This document shows positions 41,501 through 56,500 of a stretch of DNA of 64,000 nucleotides, piece after piece. Positions within the stretch are counted from its first letter, which is position 1. Each line of letters begins with the position of its first letter. The stretch is from Thermoanaerobaculia bacterium. Its GTDB lineage: Bacteria > Acidobacteriota > Thermoanaerobaculia > Multivoradales > JBJKRB01. The stretch lies in assembly GCA_046704885.1 (NCBI GenBank), contig JBJKRB010000207.1:11819-75818 (forward strand). The letters run 5' to 3'. Made by a program: the position numbers.

Positions 41501-44500
41501 GAAGTTTCCGGTCGAAAACGATCGGGTCGAGGAGACCATCGGCGCCGCGCTCCGCGCCGGCTGCCATCGCCTCGACGTCTTCTTTATGGTGGGCATCCCG
41601 GGGCAGGACCGCGCTTCCGCTCTCCGTTCGGTGGACTACGCTCGTCACCTGCTCGAACGCTTCGGCGACGACGGACGCCTACAGGTCTACGTTGCGCCTC
41701 TGGCGCCCTTTCTCGACCCGGGCAGCCTCGCCTTCGAGTCGGCGTCCGACTATGGTTATCGACTCCGCGCCCATACGCTCGCGGAGCATCGCGATCGGCT
41801 GTCCGCCGACACTTGGGAGGGGGTCCTCAACTACGAAAGCGCCGCGCTCCCCCAGCATCAGCTGGTCGACACCACCTATGAGGCGATGGCGCGACTGATC
41901 GAGGCGAAGCGCGATCTCGGCCGACTCGAGGCCGGGCAAGCGGCGCGCAGACTCGAGCTGGTGCGAGCCGCCCAGGACTTAATGGCCGCGGCGCGGAACC
42001 ATACGGACGCCGATGGAAGCGCGGCGATCGCACCGGTCGCCAGCCAACGAGCACAGATGGAGTCTCTGACCTCTTGCCGCGTTTACGACCAGACCGATTT
42101 CGTCAGCTGGGGGCGCCGGCGCAGGCAGTTCCGCTCCCTCGGTCTTGCCGTCTTGATGCTGGAGCTCTTTTTCGAGGAGCTCCGTCACGCCTGGTTGCGC
42201 TGGCGCCGCAAGTGCTATCGCTGGTCCAGCGCAAGGAGCCTGGCAACGAATCCCGCTGCCAGCGCCGTCCTTTCTTTTCCACCGCGAGGTTGAGCCGACG
42301 CCAAACTCGCACTTCCAGCCACCGCAACAGCCGTCGCCGGGCGTGCTTGCTACAATTGTGACGGTTGCATACCACCGAAATCTATTTGCATCGAACCGCT
42401 TCTGAGGGCTTATGGAGATCAAGAAATTTCCTCGTCTGACATATAACTGGATCAGCGCTCTAGGCGCCGCTTTGGCGATCGTCTCGGGACTGACCCTCGC
42501 AGTGCTTCTCGCCTTCGGGCTCTTCTTCAAGCACGAGTTCAACCCATATTTCGGCATTTTCGTCTACACCATCCTGCCGCCGCTGCTCGTCGCCGGCCTG
42601 TTGCTCATCCCGATCGGGATGTATCGGGAATGGCGGCACTGGGGCAAGAGGGTGGAAGGAGAGACTCCCCGCTGGCCGCGAATCGACCTCAACAAGCCGA
42701 GCCACCGCAACGCGGCGTTCGTCTTCGTACTGGGCACCATCCTCTTTTTCATCATCAGCGGGGTCGCCACCTATGGCGCCTATCAGTACAGCGACTCGGT
42801 GGCCTTCTGCGGCAAGACCTGCCACTCGGTCATGTCCCCCGAGTACACCACCTACCAGCATTCGCCTCACGCTCGCGTCGCCTGCGCCTCCTGCCACGTC
42901 GGGCCCGGTGCCGGCTGGTTCGTCAAGTCGAAGCTCTCCGGCACCTACCAGATCTATGCCGTGCTGACCAACAAGTATCCGCGCCCCATCCCGACGCCGA
43001 TCGAGAGCTTGCGACCGGCGCAGGCCACCTGCGAGCAGTGCCACTGGCCGCGCATGATCTTCGGGGCGCAGCAGAAGCAGTTCAACAACTACAAGTACGA
43101 CAAGGAAAACTCGTACTGGCCGATCAACATGCTGATCAAGACCGGCGGCGGAGCTCCCAGCACCGGGCAGACCTCGGGCATCCACTGGCACATGAACATC
43201 GGCGTCACCGTCGAGTACATCGCCCGCGACGCGCATCGCCAGGACATCCCCTGGGTGAAGGTCACCGACAAGACGACGCGCCGGGTGACGATCTACCAAG
43301 ACAAGACCAATCCACTTACCAAGGCGCAGATCGCCGCGGCGACGCCACGAGTGATGGACTGCATGGACTGTCACAACCGGCCGAGCCACATCTTCCTCTC
43401 CCCGGACCAGGCGATCGACCACAAGATCCTGATCGGCGATATCTCGACCTCTCTACCCTTCGCCAAGAAGGAGGCGGTCGAGGCGATGGCCGCGAAGTAC
43501 ACCTCCGATCAGCAGGCGATGGAACAGATCGCCAACAAGATGACCGACTTCTACCGCACCAAGTACCCACAGGTCGCGGAGCAGGACCGGGTCGAGATCG
43601 ACAACGCGATCAAGGCGACCCAGGCCGCTTACAAGGAGAATATCTTCCCGCGCATGAAGGCGCGTTGGTCGGACTATCCCAACAACATCGGGCACTTCAT
43701 CAGCAAGGGGTGCATGCGCTGCCACGACGGCAACCACGTCTCGGCGGACGGCGTCGTGGTGCCCAAGAGCTGCACCACCTGCCACACCATCCTCTCTGAA
43801 GGAAGCGGCGCCAACCGGCGGGTGGCGAGCAGCCCTGACGGGCTTACCTTCCAGCACCCCGAGGACATCGGCGGCGCCTGGCAGGACACCGGCTGCTTCG
43901 AGTGCCACTCCGGTACCCAGCCCTGACCTGAGGTCAAGCCAAGCAAACGGACCAGGGCCGTGGCGCGCCAAGCGCCACGGCCATTTCTTACGGCATCGGG
44001 TGCTGGACTTGGGCGGCGTTGGGGACGAGTTGCTGGTAGGTGCTTTGGGGCACTTGCGACTGCCAGTGGCCGGTAACCTTGGCGAAGCCGACGACGCTCA
44101 CGAAGATAACGGCGATCGCCGCGGCTACCGCCCAACCACGGACGGTTCGCCCCTTGCGTCCGGGTCCACCCTCCCCTTTTGCGCCGGCGAGTCGGGGGAG
44201 CGATAGGTCGAGGGCGTCGGCGACCGGGCAGGCGGTGACGCAGGAGAGGCACGCCGAGCACTCGACCGAGCGCACCGTATCGAGCTTGTCGACGGGGAGA
44301 CCGGCTGGACAGGCCTTGGCGCACTTGCCGCAGTCGATGCAGGTCTGGGAATCACGCCGGACCGCCGTTGGGCTGAACAGCGAGACGATCCCCAGGAGGG
44401 CGCCATAGGGGCAGAGGTAGCGGCACCAGAAGTCCTTGACCAAGATCGAGCCGATCACGAGAAAGCCGATCACGACGATCCCGGTAGTCCCCAGAAAGCG

Positions 44501-53500: not shown

Positions 53501-56500
53501 ATGCTCCTCAAGAAGGGCGACACCAAGGTCGCCACCTGCGTCGACTGCCATGGAGTCCATGGGATTCTGAACCCGAAGGATCCCGAAGCGCCGGTCTACC
53601 CGACCCACGTCGCCGAGACCTGCGCCAAGTGCCACGCGGATCCCAAGCACATGGCGGGCTACAAGCTCCCCGACGGGCGTCCGCTGCCGGTTGACCAGTA
53701 TGCCCTGTGGAAGCAGAGTGTTCATGCGCATGATCTCCTGGTCAACGAGGATCTCTCGGCGCCTACCTGCAACGACTGCCATGGCAACCACGGCGCCACG
53801 CCGCCGGGCCTCGACTCGATAGCCTTCGTCTGTGGTCAGTGCCACGCGCGCGAAGCCGAGCTCTTCCGGGCCAGCAAGAAGAAGCAGCTCTTTGATGAGC
53901 ACAACGGCTATCTCCAGTCGGCCGGCTCACAAGGGTGCGCCTCATGCCACTCGGCTCCTGACCCGGCGGCGAAGATCACCACGATCCACTCGTTCAGCGA
54001 GTGCGTGACCTGCCACGGCAACCACGGCATCATTCGGCCGACGCTGGCCATGCTGGCGCCGCTGCCCCCAACGCCGTGCGCCCTTTGCCACGAACCGCCG
54101 GGCCCGCTCGCTCCTGACGAGGAAGAGCCCGTCTCCAAGGTGGTCGAGTACCATCAATTCCGTGACCGCTTGCTCGCCGAAGCAAAGGCGAAGGGGCTCA
54201 CGGGCGAGGACCGCTTCGACTGGCTCGTCGATCAGGCCCAGCACCTTCCCACCCATACCCAGCCGTTGGCGCACGGAGGTGGGGTCGAGCTCCGGCCGCA
54301 GTTCAAGCGGTTGTTCGACAAGTTCCGCATCGGGAAGACCTACTACACCTACCAGGACCCGGCCACGGGCAAGATGACGCGCAAGGAGATCGTCCGTTGC
54401 AGCCACTGCCACGCGCAAAAGCCGACCCTCACCGACAAGCCGATCGGCTTCGACACGAGCAGCGCGTTCCTCAGTGGCATGCGTCAGCTCACTGGGCTCA
54501 CCGCCCGCGCCGAGCGCATCCTTCTGACCGCGCGCCGCGGTGGGGTCGAGACCCGGCCGGCGCTGGGTGAGATCGACAGCGCTGTAGACTCCCAGGTGCA
54601 ACTCGAGGTCCTCGTTCACACCTTCTCGGACGCGCCCAAGGGCAAGTTCGAGACCACCCAGGCGGAAGGCGTCAAACACGCCAAGGCGGCGCTCGCCGCG
54701 GCCCAGAAAGCTCTCCACGAGCTCTCCTACCGCCGCCGCGGGCTCTATGTCGCGCTCGCCTTCGTGGCCTTGGTGCTGATCGGCCTGGCCCTCAAGATCC
54801 GCCAGATGTCGCGCTAGCACTCCCTGACAGCTGTCGAGGAAGTCCGCGCGTTTCCATAGAGGCCGTGCTCCCCACCGGGAGCGCGGCCTCACTCTTTCTC
54901 CGCCGAGCAACGCTTTGCAGAACGGCGAATCAGGCTCTTCGAAGCAAGAAGTCCAGAGTGGGGGGGAGGCCTTCAGCGAGGGAGCGGGGGTGCCAATCGA
55001 GCTCCTCCCTGGCCCGCTGGTCGTCGAAGTTCCAGTGCCGGCGAAGGTTCTCGAGCTGTTCCCGGTGCACTCGTGGGCGGCGGCCGATGAGCGGCAATAG
55101 GACCTTCGAGGTGTTGAGCAGCGCTCGCGCCACCGGCAATGAGAGATCGGTCCGCGGGGCCGCGACGCCCGTGTGATCCGCTACCTTCTCCGCGACCTGG
55201 CGCACCGTCGCCCCTTCGCCAGTCAACAGGTACCCTCGCCCGGCCGGGGCCCGGTCCAGGATCCGCACCATCGCTTCGACCACATCGTCGAGAAACACCC
55301 ACCGTGTGATTCTTTCGGCGCCAACCAGAAAGCGCAGCCGTCCTCGGCCCAAGGCGCGGAGCAGGGGATTAGCGCCGCCCTTCTTCCCCGGAGGACCATA
55401 AACCAGGCTGGGATAGACCGTATTGAGATCGAGTCCCTGCGCTGCCACGGACTCGATCGCCTTCTGAGCGGCGTTCTTGGTAGCGCTGTAGGCGGTGAGG
55501 AAGGGTTGGCGCGGTGAGCTATCCTCGTTACCGGGCGCACCGTCGTCGGCACTTCCGCCGAAGAAGGCCATCGAGGAGACCGAAAGGAAACGCCTCGCTC
55601 CGACCTCGACAGCGGTCCGGGCCACGTTCTCGCTTCCCACCACGTTGACCGCTCTCATTCTCTCGCGCGGCACGCGGAGGTCGAGCTCAGCCGCCGCGTG
55701 GATCACCGCCTCGCACCCCTTCATTCCGGGCGCAAGAGACCCTGGATCGCCCAGGTCCCCCACGAAGCAAGAAGCGCCCACTTCCTCGAGGTGCCGCCGG
55801 TCGCTCGTCGGCCGCACCAGGCAATGAAGCTCATGCCCTTCGGAGAGCAGGCGCGCGGCAAGGGCCTCACCGAGGTATCCCGTTCCTCCAGTTAGATAGA
55901 TACGCATCACGGCGCCTGCCATAGGCCGGGAATCGCCCGCTGGCAAAAATTGTTATCCAACATAGGACGGGTCATACAGGGAGTTGGGCCCGTCATCGGG
56001 GTCAACAGAGTCAGGGGAGTCAAGAGACTCGAGCGACTCCGGCAATCTCCTTCAGCTCCCTCTCCTCCCCCCGTGCCGTCACCCTCCTCGGCACGGGGCT
56101 TTTTTGTCCTGGCGCCGGGTCGCCCTAGCAGCAAGAACTCTGCGTCATGCGCTCGCCGCGAGCTGGCGCAAGACGTACTGGAGGATTCCTCCGTGGCGAT
56201 AGTAGGCCACCTCCTGCGGCGTGTCGAGGCGCACCCGGGCCTTGAAGCGCAGGCTCGACCCATCCTCACGCTGGGCCTCGACCTCGATCTCCCGGTGCTC
56301 CTCACCCTCCGCAACCAGCGCTTCGGGAAGTCCACGGGTCGAGAAGACCTCGTGGCCGTCGAAACCCAGCTTCTCTGCCGAGTCGCCGGCGAGAAACTCG
56401 AGCGGCACGACCCCCATGCCGATCAGGTTCGAGCGATGGATTCGCTCGTAGCTCTCGGCGATGACAGCTTTGACGCCGAGGAGAGCCGGCCCCTTGGCCG

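What the first reader, a model, noticed from the sequence alone, without database searches (positions are those of the whole stretch)
42412..54817. Dense multihaem-cytochrome cluster resembling a composite extracellular electron transfer (EET) pathway
About 12.4 kb encodes, in order: an ImcH-like 7-haem inner-membrane cytochrome (+); a NapH-like polyferredoxin (-); a CbcL-like protein with 11 haems fused to a dihaem cytochrome b (-); a monohaem cytochrome c (-); an MtrA/MtoA-like decahaem (+); an MtrB/MtoB-like outer-membrane barrel (+); and a Rieske / cytochrome b / 11-haem cytochrome c complex (+). That is 40 haem-binding motifs counted by eye. The combination joins Geobacter-type inner-membrane quinol oxidoreductases (ImcH, CbcL) with a Shewanella/Sideroxydans-type porin-cytochrome conduit (MtrAB/MtoAB) and a multihaem bc-type complex. 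These are normally discussed as alternatives found in different lineages. It could operate in Fe(III)/Mn(IV) reduction or in Fe(II) oxidation.
Basis: partly seen in the sequence, partly recalled or inferred. Interest (0 to 1): 0.85.

Follow-up and report, generated by a model that had tools for sequence, protein, structure and literature searches.

The report
Acidobacterial Mto-type extracellular electron-transfer gene cluster
This stretch of a probable Thermoanaerobaculia (Acidobacteriota) genome encodes an outer-membrane cytochrome-in-a-barrel electron conduit bundled with a small periplasmic cytochrome and three different inner-membrane quinone-linked cytochrome complexes; it is a real but only moderately novel variant of known iron-oxidising/iron-reducing electron-transfer gene clusters.

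Summary
Nine ORFs lie at the stated coordinates, with 39 CXXCH motifs plus one CX3CH. The six-frame translation of the whole 64-kb window has only one other CXXCH.

Gene identities are largely confirmed:
- The decahaem passes the DmsE/MtrA family cut-off and aligns with MtrA at all ten haem motifs.
- The 630-aa protein models as a large barrel whose best structural match is MtrB.
- The 7-haem protein is collinear with Geobacter ImcH.
- The 11-haem/cytochrome b fusion has the CbcL/MtoC/MtrH layout.
- Rieske, b6-like cytochrome b and a membrane-anchored 11-haem cytochrome form a widespread bc-type module.

Decahaem and barrel are adjacent in essentially all 80 related loci. The ImcH-like, MtoC-like, monohaem and bc-type genes recur near them in Thermoanaerobaculia-type loci, which lack an MtrC-like surface cytochrome. 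The NapH-like gene does not recur.

The "composite of alternative pathways" claim is overstated. CbcL homologues (MtoC/MtrH) beside mtoAB/mtoD, and a Rieske/cytochrome b set beside a Geobacter conduit, are already published. The closest known system is mtoABCD.

I rate this a new variant of a known kind. Direction is unresolved; I lean towards electron uptake/Fe(II) oxidation.

The parts
38442..40247 (-). 601-aa multi-pass membrane protein with an N-terminal coiled coil, distantly DUF2339-like. Possible accessory gene lying outside the finding's coordinates.
   Evidence: No Pfam or NCBIfam hit of its own. tblastn homologues (32-37% identity) lie directly beside the 11-haem gene in L085, L088, L012, L009, L006, L004/L032 and L010. 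The L004 homologue hits PF10101 DUF2339 at E 4e-7, below the cut-off.
42412..43926 (+). ImcH-like inner-membrane cytochrome, 504 aa, with 3 TM helices, CX3CH at residue 133 and six CXXCH motifs.
   Evidence: Motifs at 133/158/207/317/434/454/495 and TMs at 21-39/48-66/101-119. These are collinear with GSU3259 ImcH (507 aa; motifs 132/156/205/311/428/448/486; TMs 13-35/45-67/100-122) in Table S3 of PMC6295460. Pfam NapC/NirT N-terminal region 35.6 bits. The family is very large and conserved; the best hit is 94% identical, from a 'Thermoanaerobaculia bacterium'.
43956..43982 (+). Terminator-like GC-rich hairpin between the convergent ImcH-like and NapH-like genes.
   Evidence: 11-pair stem with 10 G-C pairs.
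43988..45145 (-). NapH/MauN/NosR-type membrane polyferredoxin, 385 aa. A neighbour that is probably not part of the conserved system.
   Evidence: Fer4_5 x2 and two 4Fe-4S motifs. TIGR02163 scores 76.6 bits against a cut-off of 213. Two CX3CP motifs (CSWLCP, CRYLCP) and 5 TM helices. A terminator-like hairpin separates it from the upstream gene. No homologue occurs in any of 80 related loci.
45409..45435 (-). Terminator-like hairpin ending the monohaem/CbcL-like transcription unit.
   Evidence: 10-pair stem with 9 G-C pairs, followed by a T-run.
45471..47435 (-). CbcL/MtoC/MtrH-family inner-membrane protein, 654 aa: signal/anchor, 11 c-type haem motifs, then a 6-TM FdnI/HydC-like cytochrome b domain.
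   Evidence: CXXCH at 42-311 and TMs at 342/396/443/516/550/634. The TM layout nearly superimposes on MtoC Daro_1404 (655 aa; TMs 339/397/439/515/544/631), and the last six haem spacings match it. PF01292 scores 24.8 bits (cut-off 30.1) and TIGR01583 gives E 4e-6. Homologues occur in 12 of 34 Thermoanaerobaculia-type loci.
47579..47983 (-). Periplasmic class-I monohaem cytochrome c, 134 aa. Occupies the position of MtoD and is its probable functional analogue.
   Evidence: PF00034 36.7 bits. Signal peptide and CNTCH at residue 57. Twenty homologues share an invariant CxxCH and an invariant His (H110), while the Met is not conserved. It lies divergent from the decahaem gene in 13 of 34 close loci. 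Two copies are fused to the barrel in P0314/L089. No sequence match to MtoD itself.
47984..48284 (.). 301-bp divergent intergenic region between the monohaem/CbcL-like unit and the decahaem/barrel unit; presumed to hold the promoters.
   Evidence: Gene map. Only one weak sigma-70-like match nearby, not above chance. Inferred, not shown.
48285..49202 (+). MtrA/MtoA/DmsE-family periplasmic decahaem cytochrome, 305 aa.
   Evidence: TIGR03508 scores 193.8 bits against a cut-off of 192.2. The match to 6r2q_A (MtrA) has E 2.1e-27 over residues 37-299, with all ten CXXCH aligned and 37% identity. It lies immediately upstream of the barrel gene in 78 of the 80 related loci; the two exceptions start at or near the barrel gene.
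49215..51107 (+). MtrB/MtoB/PioB-like outer-membrane beta-barrel, 630 aa, starting 12 bp after the decahaem gene.
51134..51170 (+). Strong hairpin followed by CUUUUC directly after the barrel gene; likely terminator or attenuator separating the decahaem/barrel unit from the Rieske unit.
   Evidence: MFE -34.9 kcal/mol, z -4.76, and 0 of 200 shuffles fold as well. The consensus scan missed it. It is absent from the closest relative L005, where the gap is about 60 nt.
51438..51914 (+). Rieske 2Fe-2S subunit, probably 158 aa; the ORF opens at 51132.
   Evidence: PF00355 43.9 bits. CTHLAC and CNCH boxes, an RRRV twin-arginine-like motif, and TTG 51438 with AAAGGA upstream. Homologues are 143-155 aa.
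51918..53087 (+). Cytochrome b, 389 aa: a fused b6-like domain plus a subunit-IV-like domain, 8 TM helices.
   Evidence: PF00033 159.6 bits and PF00032 48 bits. Match to cytochrome b6 1q90_B at E 3.6e-57. His 91/105 and 192/207, PEWY at 280, and no Cys for haem ci (FYYLGG).
53084..54817 (+). 11-haem cytochrome c, 577 aa, with signal peptide and C-terminal TM anchor; the c-type subunit of the bc-type complex. Overlaps the cytochrome b gene by 4 bp.
   Evidence: 11 CXXCH and a TM at 554-572. Large conserved family: 5888 of 8000 scored candidates have E<=1e-5, and the 120 best-listed hits are 56% identical or more. In the four further contexts inspected it follows cytochrome b in all four and Rieske in three. 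One cytochrome b fusion exists, P0182. No solved relative by sequence or fold.
54859..54890 (+). Terminator-like hairpin ending the Rieske/cytochrome b/11-haem unit.
   Evidence: 14-pair stem with 11 G-C pairs.

Best explanation
The region is a modular extracellular electron-transfer (EET) locus of a probable Thermoanaerobaculia bacterium. Its closest known counterpart is the mtoABCD cluster of Fe(II)-oxidising Betaproteobacteria.

Proposed mechanism:
1. The decahaem cytochrome (48285-49202) threads through the 630-aa barrel (49215-51107), forming a haem wire across the outer membrane. There is no MtrC-like surface cytochrome.
2. At its periplasmic end it exchanges electrons with the small class-I monohaem cytochrome (47579-47983).
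3. That cytochrome connects to the quinone pool through up to three inner-membrane modules: the MtoC/CbcL-like 11-haem/cytochrome b fusion (same operon as the monohaem gene), the ImcH-like 7-haem protein, and the Rieske/cytochrome b/11-haem complex. The last is the lineage's general bc-type complex.

Shown here: family or fold assignments and conserved neighbourhood.
Inferred: physical contacts, redox partners and direction.

Commitment on direction: I think the system most likely works inward, taking electrons from extracellular Fe(II) or another reduced solid or humic donor. Electrons would be passed downhill to a terminal oxidase and uphill, against the proton-motive force, into the quinone pool, as proposed for Mto. 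The same wire should also be able to run outward. My odds are about 0.45 inward, 0.35 outward and 0.2 other.

The NapH-like gene is probably an unrelated neighbour.
For: Conduit:
- TIGR03508 scores 193.8 against a cut-off of 192.2.
- MtrA 6r2q_A matches at E 2.1e-27 with all ten haem motifs aligned.
- The decahaem lies directly upstream of the barrel in 78 of the 80 related genome loci; the two exceptions start at or near the barrel gene.

Inner-membrane modules:
- ImcH collinearity.
- MtoC/CbcL architecture.
- Rieske, cytochrome b and PEWY features.

Functional linkage:
- In 18 Thermoanaerobaculia-type loci with full flanks, the ImcH-like gene occurs in 7, CbcL-like in 9, the monohaem gene in 10 and the 11-haem gene in 6, in varying order and orientation.
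- Two monohaem domains are fused to the barrel in P0314/L089.
- In L086 the bc-type module lies beside a second, divergent MtrA-like/porin/cytochrome trio.

Inward direction:
- No MtrC-like gene in the window or in the close loci. About 26 of the more distant, mostly Aminicenantes-type, loci carry a 700-790-aa decahaem after the barrel, and these almost never have the monohaem, ImcH-like or CbcL-like genes nearby.
- The monohaem family conserves a His rather than a Met as the likely distal ligand, like bis-His MtoD.
- The published Mto model links MtoA via MtoD to bc1, an oxidase and CymA/MtoC (PMC4412085, PMC5566968).
- L089 places the cluster beside a caa3-type oxidase operon.
Against: - ImcH and CbcL are characterised only as quinol oxidases for outward EET in Geobacter.
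- The one cultured member of the class, Thermoanaerobaculum aquaticum, is an Fe(III)/Mn(IV) reducer (cited in PMC9671151 and PMC8100337).
- Three parallel quinone modules fit the Geobacter logic of potential-tuned outward pathways better than they fit reverse electron flow.
- The oxidase adjacency is seen in one locus only.
- The monohaem protein has no detectable sequence similarity to MtoD.
- The barrel itself gives no Pfam MtrB_PioB hit, and its family profile does not find MtrB in the PDB by sequence.
- The bc-type module also occurs without any conduit nearby, so its adjacency here may reflect general respiration.
- No expression or physiological data exist.
Confidence: 0.45

Rival explanations
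1. Same architecture, but the physiological direction is outward. Quinol is oxidised by one of three inner-membrane modules chosen according to acceptor potential: bc-type complex for the highest, ImcH-like for intermediate, CbcL-like for the lowest. Electrons then pass through the monohaem cytochrome and the decahaem/barrel conduit to soluble or chelated Fe(III), Mn(IV), humic substances or shuttles.
For: - The ImcH and CbcL family assignments hold, and both are inner-membrane components of outward EET in Geobacter (PMC6295460).
- The cultured class member reduces Fe(III)/Mn(IV) (PMC9671151, PMC8100337).
- More distant barrel-family loci carry an MtrC-like decahaem, typical of reducers.
- Geobacter's ext cluster combines a Rieske/cytochrome b/multihaem set with an outer-membrane conduit and responds to Fe(III) (PMC5877670).
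Against: - No surface cytochrome in the window or in close loci.
- The MtoD-like monohaem and the MtoC-like layout point to the Mto type.
- ImcH homologues are also common in aerobic Acidobacteria not known for metal reduction (Table S3).
- A Rieske centre needs an acceptor chain of higher potential than most Fe(III) oxides provide (established bioenergetics; inference).
Confidence: 0.35
2. Only the decahaem/barrel pair, with the monohaem and MtoC-like genes, is an EET device. The ImcH-like protein, the NapH-like protein and the Rieske/cytochrome b/11-haem complex are general respiratory components (for example quinol:cytochrome c oxidoreductase for oxygen or nitrogen-oxide respiration) that merely sit in a respiratory gene neighbourhood.
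For: - The 11-haem and ImcH-like families are very large and highly conserved compared with the small barrel family.
- The bc-type module occurs alone in L087 and in other contexts.
- Each module here is its own transcription unit, bounded by hairpins.
- The NapH-like gene is unique to this window.
Against: Chance adjacency of single-copy modules within 10 kb of the pair should be rare. Yet ImcH-like, CbcL-like and 11-haem genes recur in 7, 9 and 6 of 18 full-flank close loci, with shuffled order. The bc-type module also neighbours a different conduit-like trio in L086.
Confidence: 0.15
3. The cluster is a chalcogen-oxyanion (selenite/tellurite) or other periplasmic oxyanion reduction system, comparable to Geobacter extHIJKLMNOPQS.
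For: - The cytochrome b scores 208.8 bits on NCBIfam ExtP, and the CbcL-like protein weakly hits ExtM.
- A rhodanese and a TIGR03169 'N-terminal to SelD' oxidoreductase lie 4-5 kb upstream.
Against: - The ExtP score is below its cut-off of 290, and the protein scores higher on cytochrome b6 (223.3 bits).
- No hits to ExtH/I/J/K/L/N/O/S models.
- The rhodanese and oxidoreductase are absent from all related loci.
- The barrel is MtrB-like, not ExtI-like.
Confidence: 0.05

Closest known systems
mtoABCD clusters of Gallionella capsiferriformans ES-2 and Dechloromonas aromatica RCB (and mtoABD-cymA of Sideroxydans lithotrophicus ES-1)
   Same: The shared parts are a decahaem MtoA-type cytochrome, the gene for a large outer-membrane barrel immediately downstream, no MtrC, a periplasmic class-I monohaem cytochrome, and an inner-membrane multihaem/cytochrome b fusion (MtoC, a CbcL homologue). 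The window's protein matches MtoC in length and TM layout. The published model also links the pathway to a bc complex.
   Different: - Different phylum; barrel and decahaem are only remote relatives (barrel about 12-13% identical to MtrB in structural alignment).
- The MtoC-like protein has 11 rather than 9 haems.
- The monohaem protein is not detectably homologous to MtoD.
- An ImcH-like gene and a Rieske/cytochrome b/11-haem operon sit in the same locus.
Shewanella MtrCAB (PDB 6R2Q)
   Same: The decahaem aligns with MtrA across all ten haems (E 2.1e-27, 37% identity). The barrel's best fold match is MtrB. The A-then-B gene order is the same.
   Different: - No MtrC/OmcA surface decahaem.
- No CymA; the inner-membrane partners are ImcH-, CbcL- and bc-type.
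- The barrel fails the Pfam MtrB_PioB model on its own.
Geobacter sulfurreducens inner-membrane cytochromes ImcH (GSU3259) and CbcL (GSU0274)
   Same: ImcH-like: same length, 3 TM helices, CX3CH plus six CXXCH at nearly the same positions. CbcL-like: N-terminal multihaem domain plus a 6-TM dihaem-b-type domain.
   Different: - The CbcL-like protein has 11 haems and an MtoC-like TM register.
- Here both genes lie beside an MtrAB-type pair. For imcH this was explicitly not observed in the 2018 survey.
- Direct sequence comparison with the Geobacter proteins could not be run.
Geobacter extHIJKLMNOPQS cluster
   Same: It is a precedent for an outer-membrane porin/cytochrome set encoded next to a Rieske protein, a b6-like cytochrome b and multihaem c-type cytochromes. 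The window's cytochrome b scores 208.8 bits on the ExtP model.
   Different: - Below the ExtP cut-off, and no other Ext model is matched.
- The conduit type differs (ExtI porin against an MtrB-like barrel).
- No selenocysteine cytochrome or conserved rhodanese.
Acidithiobacillus ferrooxidans petI and rus operons
   Same: The concept is shared: a dedicated bc complex and c-type carriers connect an outer-membrane Fe(II) oxidase to the quinone pool (uphill) and to an aa3 oxidase (downhill), as summarised in PMC4412085. One related locus (L089) places the conduit next to a caa3-type oxidase operon.
   Different: The outer-membrane component is unrelated (Cyc2 fused porin-cytochrome), there is no rusticyanin, and the bc complex here carries an 11-haem subunit.

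Membership tests
MtrA/MtoA/DmsE decahaem cytochromes (NCBIfam TIGR03508) | Score at or above the curated family cut-off | tested here: met
   193.8 bits against a cut-off of 192.2, a borderline pass.
MtrA/MtoA/DmsE decahaem cytochromes (NCBIfam TIGR03508) | Ten CXXCH motifs collinear with a structurally characterised MtrA | tested here: met
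   6r2q_A matches at E 2.1e-27 over residues 37-299. All ten motifs are aligned, at 37% identity.
MtrA/MtoA/DmsE decahaem cytochromes (NCBIfam TIGR03508) | Encoded next to its barrel partner | tested here: met
   12-bp gap in the window. The decahaem lies directly upstream of the barrel in 78 of the 80 loci; the two exceptions start at or near the barrel gene.
MtrA/MtoA/DmsE decahaem cytochromes (NCBIfam TIGR03508) | Placement within the MtrA, MtoA, PioA or DmsE clades by phylogeny | not testable with these tools
   Named reference sequences could not be retrieved.
MtrB/MtoB/PioB barrels (Pfam PF11854) | Match to the Pfam model | tested here: not met
   The window protein gives no PF11854 hit at E<=0.1. 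Seven of its 26 homologues (30-45% identical) do hit, and three pass the 23-bit cut-off at 48.5, 32.8 and 30.8 bits. Homology is therefore only transitive.
MtrB/MtoB/PioB barrels (Pfam PF11854) | Large (26-strand) barrel fold most similar to MtrB | tested here: met
MtrB/MtoB/PioB barrels (Pfam PF11854) | Sequence-level similarity to solved MtrB | tested here: not met
   The family profile against the PDB finds no MtrB at E<=10.
ImcH (as defined in PMC6295460) | About 500 aa, three N-terminal TM helices, one CX3CH followed by 5-9 CXXCH, NapC/NirT-like region | tested here: met
   504 aa, 3 TM helices, CX3CH at 133 and six CXXCH. Positions are collinear with GSU3259 to within 1-9 residues.
ImcH (as defined in PMC6295460) | Direct sequence homology to GSU3259, and a role with high-potential acceptors | not testable with these tools
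CbcL/MtoC/MtrH | N-terminal multihaem c domain fused to a six-TM b-type cytochrome (HydC/FdnI-like) domain | tested here: met
   11 CXXCH followed by 6 TM helices whose register matches Daro_1404 MtoC. TIGR01583 gives E 4e-6. The published family range is 3-23 haems.
CbcL/MtoC/MtrH | Pfam Ni_hydr_CYTB (PF01292) above the cut-off | tested here: not met
   24.8 bits against 30.1. Homologues in L004 and L089 carry the hit.
MtoD | Sequence homology to S. lithotrophicus MtoD (PDB 4XXL) | tested here: not met
   No such hit at E<=1 in the PDB search.
MtoD | Class-I monohaem cytochrome encoded with mtoA/mtoB; bis-His ligation | tested here: inconclusive
   PF00034 hit and conserved position next to the decahaem gene. 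His110 is invariant and the Met is not, across 20 homologues. Ligation itself is inferred only.
NapH | NCBIfam NapH/MauN score above the cut-off, and a NapG partner | tested here: not met
   TIGR02163 scores 76.6 against 213, and NF007013 scores 68.6 against 234. There is no NapG-like gene nearby. Only the superfamily features are present (2 CX3CP, 2 Fe-S motifs, TM helices).
Rieske/cytochrome b (bc1/b6f-type) complexes | Rieske CxH...CxxH boxes; cytochrome b with four haem-ligating His and a PEWY Qo motif; adjacent genes | tested here: met
   CTHLAC and CNCH boxes; His 91/105/192/207; PEWY at 280; gene gaps of 3 bp and -4 bp.
Rieske/cytochrome b (bc1/b6f-type) complexes | Canonical cytochrome c1, f or dihaem c subunit | tested here: not met
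   The third subunit is a membrane-anchored 11-haem cytochrome with no solved relative.
MtrC/OmcA surface decahaem cytochromes | Presence of a 650-800-aa lipoprotein decahaem next to mtrAB | tested here: not met
   The window has no further CXXCH-bearing ORF. Such genes are present only in the more distant, mostly Aminicenantes-type, loci.
Geobacter ExtHIJKLMNOPQS | Matches to the NCBIfam Ext models above their cut-offs | tested here: not met
   ExtP scores 208.8 against 290, ExtM 19 against 800, and no other Ext model is matched.

The most novel reading that the evidence does not exclude
In Thermoanaerobaculia-type Acidobacteriota, a Q-cycle Rieske/cytochrome b complex carries its own membrane-anchored 11-haem 'wire'. 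Via a bis-His monohaem cytochrome that can even be fused to the barrel, this complex is plugged into an MtrAB-type outer-membrane conduit. Together with the ImcH-like and MtoC-like modules it would form a three-way, potential-tiered switchboard. Such a switchboard would let one cell run the same conduit either outward (energy-conserving respiration of high-potential extracellular acceptors) or inward (Fe(II) or cathode oxidation with reverse electron flow).
Probability: 0.2. Interest if true: 0.75.

Novelty: new variant of a known kind. Interest (0 to 1): 0.5.

Why it matters
EET pathways are understood mechanistically almost only in Shewanella, Geobacter and a few Betaproteobacteria. Acidobacteriota are abundant in soils and sediments, but their iron-cycling machinery is inferred mostly from motif counts.

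This locus, and the roughly 30 related loci found here, give a concrete gene set to test:
- the outer-membrane conduit;
- the periplasmic monohaem carrier;
- three candidate inner-membrane couplers, including a widespread but uncharacterised bc-type complex with an 11-haem subunit.

The locus also shows imcH-like genes next to an mtrAB-type pair, which a 2018 survey reported as not occurring.

It could help answer two open questions. One is how electrons pass between outer-membrane conduits and the quinone pool outside the model organisms. The other is whether gene content can predict the direction of flow.

Tried and rejected
1. Sequence search of the barrel-family profile against the PDB found nothing relevant. 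The link to MtrB rests on fold and on transitive Pfam hits.
2. PDB sequence and fold searches for the 11-haem subunit gave no significant match. The best was hydroxylamine oxidoreductase at E 0.18, so no structural analogy is claimed.
3. MtoD homology for the monohaem cytochrome was rejected at sequence level.
4. Selenite/tellurite (Ext-like) reading: rejected. Only the cytochrome b resembles ExtP, below the cut-off, and the upstream rhodanese and SelD-associated oxidoreductase are not conserved.
5. DmsEF-type conduit for a surface molybdoenzyme: no molybdopterin oxidoreductase in the window.
6. Mobile-element origin: the only integrase is a xerC/D-type gene next to hslVU. No tRNA or Rfam hits, and only a slight GC dip.
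7. My first idea that the monohaem cytochrome is His/Met-ligated and high-potential was dropped after the alignment showed the Met is not conserved while a His is.
8. My first reading, that the decahaem-to-11-haem genes form one operon (no terminator), was revised after the hairpin at 51134-51170 was found.
9. Oxidase adjacency as a general feature: tested and found in L089 only.
10. The AlphaFold database library was unavailable for the fold search.
11. Literature searches found no description of this exact architecture. The searchable library is incomplete.

Full report
OBSERVATION. All have the high third-position GC of real genes in this roughly 65% GC sequence.
- Motif counts are 6 CXXCH + 1 CX3CH, 11, 1, 10 and 11, giving 40.
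- Translating the whole 64-kb window in six frames yields only 40 CXXCH. Thirty-nine are in frame in these five ORFs, one is out of frame at 49229, and none lies elsewhere. The cluster is far beyond chance.
- One correction concerns the Rieske ORF, which opens at 51132. Its first ~100 codons look non-coding. The likely start is TTG 51438 with an AAAGGA site, giving 158 aa against 143-155 aa in homologues.

WHAT EACH GENE IS.

Decahaem (48285-49202).
- It passes, narrowly, the NCBIfam DmsE/MtrA family cut-off: 193.8 against 192.2 bits.
- It matches MtrA of the solved Mtr complex (6r2q_A) at E 2.1e-27, with all ten haem motifs aligned and 37% identity.

Barrel (49215-51107), starting 12 bp downstream of the decahaem gene.
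- It has a signal peptide and ends in ...GYRW.
- It has no Pfam MtrB_PioB hit of its own, and its family profile does not find MtrB by sequence.
- Seven of its 26 homologues do hit PF11854, three above the cut-off.
- It is therefore a remote MtrB/MtoB/PioB-type barrel.

7-haem protein (42412-43926).
- It has three TM helices, and a CX3CH followed by six CXXCH at 133/158/207/317/434/454/495.
- Geobacter ImcH (GSU3259, 507 aa) has motifs at 132/156/205/311/428/448/486 and TM helices at 13-35/45-67/100-122 (Table S3 of PMC6295460). The two proteins are collinear.

654-aa protein (45471-47435).
- It has 11 haem motifs followed by six TM helices at 342/396/443/516/550/634.
- This is the CbcL/MtoC/MtrH architecture. 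The TM register and the last six haem spacings are nearly those of MtoC from Dechloromonas (655 aa; TM helices at 339/397/439/515/544/631), with two extra N-terminal haems (Table S2).

Other genes.
- The 134-aa protein is a secreted class-I monohaem cytochrome.
- The Rieske protein has the CTHLAC and CNCH boxes.
- The cytochrome b is b6-like (E 3.6e-57 to 1q90_B), with His 91/105/192/207, PEWY, eight TM helices and no haem-ci cysteine.
- The 11-haem protein has a signal peptide and a C-terminal anchor, and overlaps the cytochrome b gene by 4 bp.
- The NapH-like protein has the superfamily hallmarks (two CX3CP, two 4Fe-4S motifs, TM helices) but scores far below the NapH cut-offs.

TRANSCRIPTION UNITS. 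GC-rich hairpins follow four genes:
- the ImcH-like gene (43956-43982);
- the CbcL-like gene (45435-45409);
- the 11-haem gene (54859-54890);
- the barrel gene (51134-51170; -34.9 kcal/mol, z -4.8), which the scan missed.

The likely units are therefore [ImcH-like], [NapH-like], [monohaem, CbcL-like], [decahaem, barrel] and [Rieske, cytochrome b, 11-haem]. The third and fourth units diverge from a 301-bp spacer. Promoters were not identifiable.

ORIGIN AND RELATIVES.
- The best hit of the ImcH-like protein is 94% identical, from a Thermoanaerobaculia MAG.
- The barrel family was found in 103 of about 186,000 species genomes. These are mostly Acidobacteriota (Thermoanaerobaculia, Aminicenantes, Vicinamibacteria), with a few Gammaproteobacteria, Calditrichaceae and Gemmatimonadota.
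- A profile search of 1.84 billion representatives gives only 602 proteins at E<=1e-10.
- The flanks are housekeeping genes, including xerC/D-hslVU, tyrS, gdh, citrate synthase, aconitase and queDE. There is no tRNA, Rfam hit or mobile-element signature.

CONSERVED NEIGHBOURHOOD.
- The decahaem gene lies directly upstream of the barrel gene in 78 of the 80 loci; the two exceptions start at or near the barrel gene.
- The loci split into two types.
- In the more distant, mostly Aminicenantes-type, loci a 700-790-aa decahaem (MtrC-like) follows the barrel in about 26 cases. The monohaem, ImcH-like and CbcL-like genes are almost never nearby.
- In the 34 closer, Thermoanaerobaculia-type loci an MtrC-like gene follows the barrel in only one (L037). 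The monohaem gene occurs in 13, CbcL-like in 12, ImcH-like in 10 and the 11-haem gene in 7. Among the 18 loci with at least 8 kb on both sides the counts are 10, 9, 7 and 6. Order and orientation vary.
- Such recurrence with rearrangement indicates functional linkage.
- The NapH-like gene occurs in none.
- The rhodanese, the SelD-associated oxidoreductase, the B12 radical-SAM gene and the epimerase that flank the cluster are likewise not conserved.

THE bc-TYPE MODULE.
- The 11-haem family is large: 5888 of 8000 scored candidates have E<=1e-5, and the 120 best-listed hits are 56% identical or more.
- In the four further contexts inspected the gene follows cytochrome b in all four and Rieske in three. 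One protein fuses it to cytochrome b (P0182).
- It occurs without any conduit (L087), beside a monohaem cytochrome of the same family as the window's (L085), and beside a second, divergent conduit-like trio (L086).
- The L086 trio is an MtrA-family decahaem (30% identical to the window's, E 1e-37), a 519-aa protein with no Pfam hit, and a 325-aa multihaem protein.
- I read this as the lineage's general bc-type complex, repeatedly positioned next to outer-membrane conduits.
- Its 11-haem subunit has no solved relative by sequence or fold. Invariant residues include 9 non-motif His and 3 Met.
It may belong to the system.

THE MONOHAEM CYTOCHROME.
- Twenty homologues share CxxCH, the Gly of GPDL and one His (H110 in the window protein). 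The Met one would expect for His/Met ligation is not conserved.
- MtoD of Sideroxydans is an unusual bis-His class-I cytochrome (+155 mV), proposed to carry electrons from MtoA to bc1, cbb3 oxidase and CymA (PMC4412085).
- The window protein is not detectably homologous to MtoD, but it may work like it.
- In one metagenomic locus (L089) two such domains are fused in frame to the N-terminus of the barrel (P0314, 941 aa). By analogy with MtrB this end is expected to be periplasmic. That gene sits between a decahaem gene and a CbcL/MtoC-like gene.
- This fusion supports direct association of the monohaem cytochrome with the conduit.
- The same locus lies next to a caa3-type oxidase operon with SCO1, but this adjacency is not seen elsewhere.

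COMPARISON WITH THE LITERATURE.
- CbcL homologues named MtoC and MtrH are already known inside mtoAB/mtrAB clusters, with MtoD, in Gallionella ES-2, Dechloromonas and Rhodoferax (PMC6295460; PMC5566968). A 2022 study found mtoC/mtoD almost only with Betaproteobacteria (PMC8805035).
- The 2018 survey states that no mtrAB/mtoAB were found adjacent to imcH. Here that adjacency recurs in 10 or more loci.
- Geobacter's extHIJKLMNOPQS already shows a Rieske/cytochrome b/multihaem set next to an outer-membrane conduit (PMC5877670).
- MtrA/MtoA/PioA homologues in Acidobacteria, and MtrC plus two MtrA in Thermoanaerobaculum aquaticum, have been reported from surveys (PMC10654088; PMC9671151).
- I found no paper describing this exact architecture, but the library is incomplete.

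MECHANISM AND DIRECTION.
- Shown: family, fold and architecture assignments, and conserved linkage.
- Inferred: the decahaem threads the barrel. The monohaem cytochrome is its periplasmic partner. The MtoC-like, ImcH-like and bc-type modules couple it to the quinone pool.
- For inward flow (Fe(II) or other donor oxidation): the AB-only conduit, the MtoD-like carrier, the MtoC-like layout, the adjacent bc complex, and the single oxidase adjacency.
- For outward flow: the known roles of ImcH and CbcL in Geobacter, the Fe(III)/Mn(IV)-reducing phenotype of the one cultured class member, and the logic of several potential-tuned quinol oxidases.
- ImcH homologues are, however, also common in aerobic Acidobacteria such as Koribacter and Solibacter.
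- I put inward at about 0.45, outward at about 0.35, and "the modules are only neighbours" or other readings at about 0.2.

VERDICT. The gene-level interpretation is largely right. The novelty claim is overstated, and the NapH-like gene is probably not part of the system. This is a new variant of a known kind (Mto/Mtr-type EET) in an under-studied phylum, of moderate interest (0.5).

Noticed in passing
window 38442-40247 (-): A 601-aa multi-TM protein with an N-terminal coiled coil and no family hit of its own. Its homologues lie directly beside the 11-haem gene of the bc-type module in at least seven other loci, and one homologue weakly matches DUF2339. It may be an unrecognised accessory of that complex.
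   Followed up: partly
L089 8001-10826 (protein P0314): A natural in-frame fusion of two monohaem class-I cytochrome domains (same family as window 47579-47983) to an MtrB-like barrel. It is flanked by a decahaem gene and a CbcL/MtoC-like gene, and lies next to a caa3-type oxidase operon with SCO1.
   Followed up: partly
protein P0381 (738 aa): A distant member of the barrel family with a single CXXCH at residue 42, ahead of the barrel. The layout resembles a Cyc2-like fused cytochrome-porin, but on a large MtrB-related barrel.
   Followed up: no
L086 12486-16029 (-): Next to another copy of the Rieske/cytochrome b/11-haem module lies a second kind of conduit-like trio: an MtrA-family decahaem (30% identical to the window's), a 519-aa protein with no Pfam hit, and a 325-aa multihaem protein with MtrC/MtrF domain II/IV similarity.
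   Followed up: partly
window 51134-51170 (+): A 15-16-bp GC-rich hairpin with a short U-run directly after the barrel gene (-34.9 kcal/mol, z -4.8). It lies in a ~330-nt spacer that the closest relative (L005) lacks; there the gap is about 60 nt.
   Followed up: yes
window 23233-26836 (-): An FTR1-family iron permease fused to an FtrD-like membrane Fe-S domain, followed by two MacB/FtsX-type permeases. This is an iron-uptake module about 16 kb from the cytochrome cluster.
   Followed up: no
window 36775-38445 (+): A rhodanese-domain protein followed by a TIGR03169 'N-terminal to SelD' pyridine-nucleotide-disulfide oxidoreductase (302 bits against a cut-off of 310). This is a sulfur/selenium-linked pair, and it is not conserved near related clusters.
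   Followed up: partly
window 40440-42293 (+): A TIGR04190-family B12-binding radical SAM protein (612.6 bits, cut-off 500) between the DUF2339-like gene and the ImcH-like gene. Its function is unknown, and it is not conserved near related clusters.
   Followed up: partly
alignment A2 (11-haem family, 38 sequences): Besides the 11 CXXCH motifs, nine further His and three Met (M86, M118, M190) are invariant. This hints that some haems may be His/Met-ligated and of higher potential than the rest.
   Followed up: no
L005 12670-13617 (same contig as L002): In the closest relative the cytochrome b gene is called as two short fragments (123 and 84 aa). This suggests a frameshift or an assembly error in that long-read MAG.
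   Followed up: no
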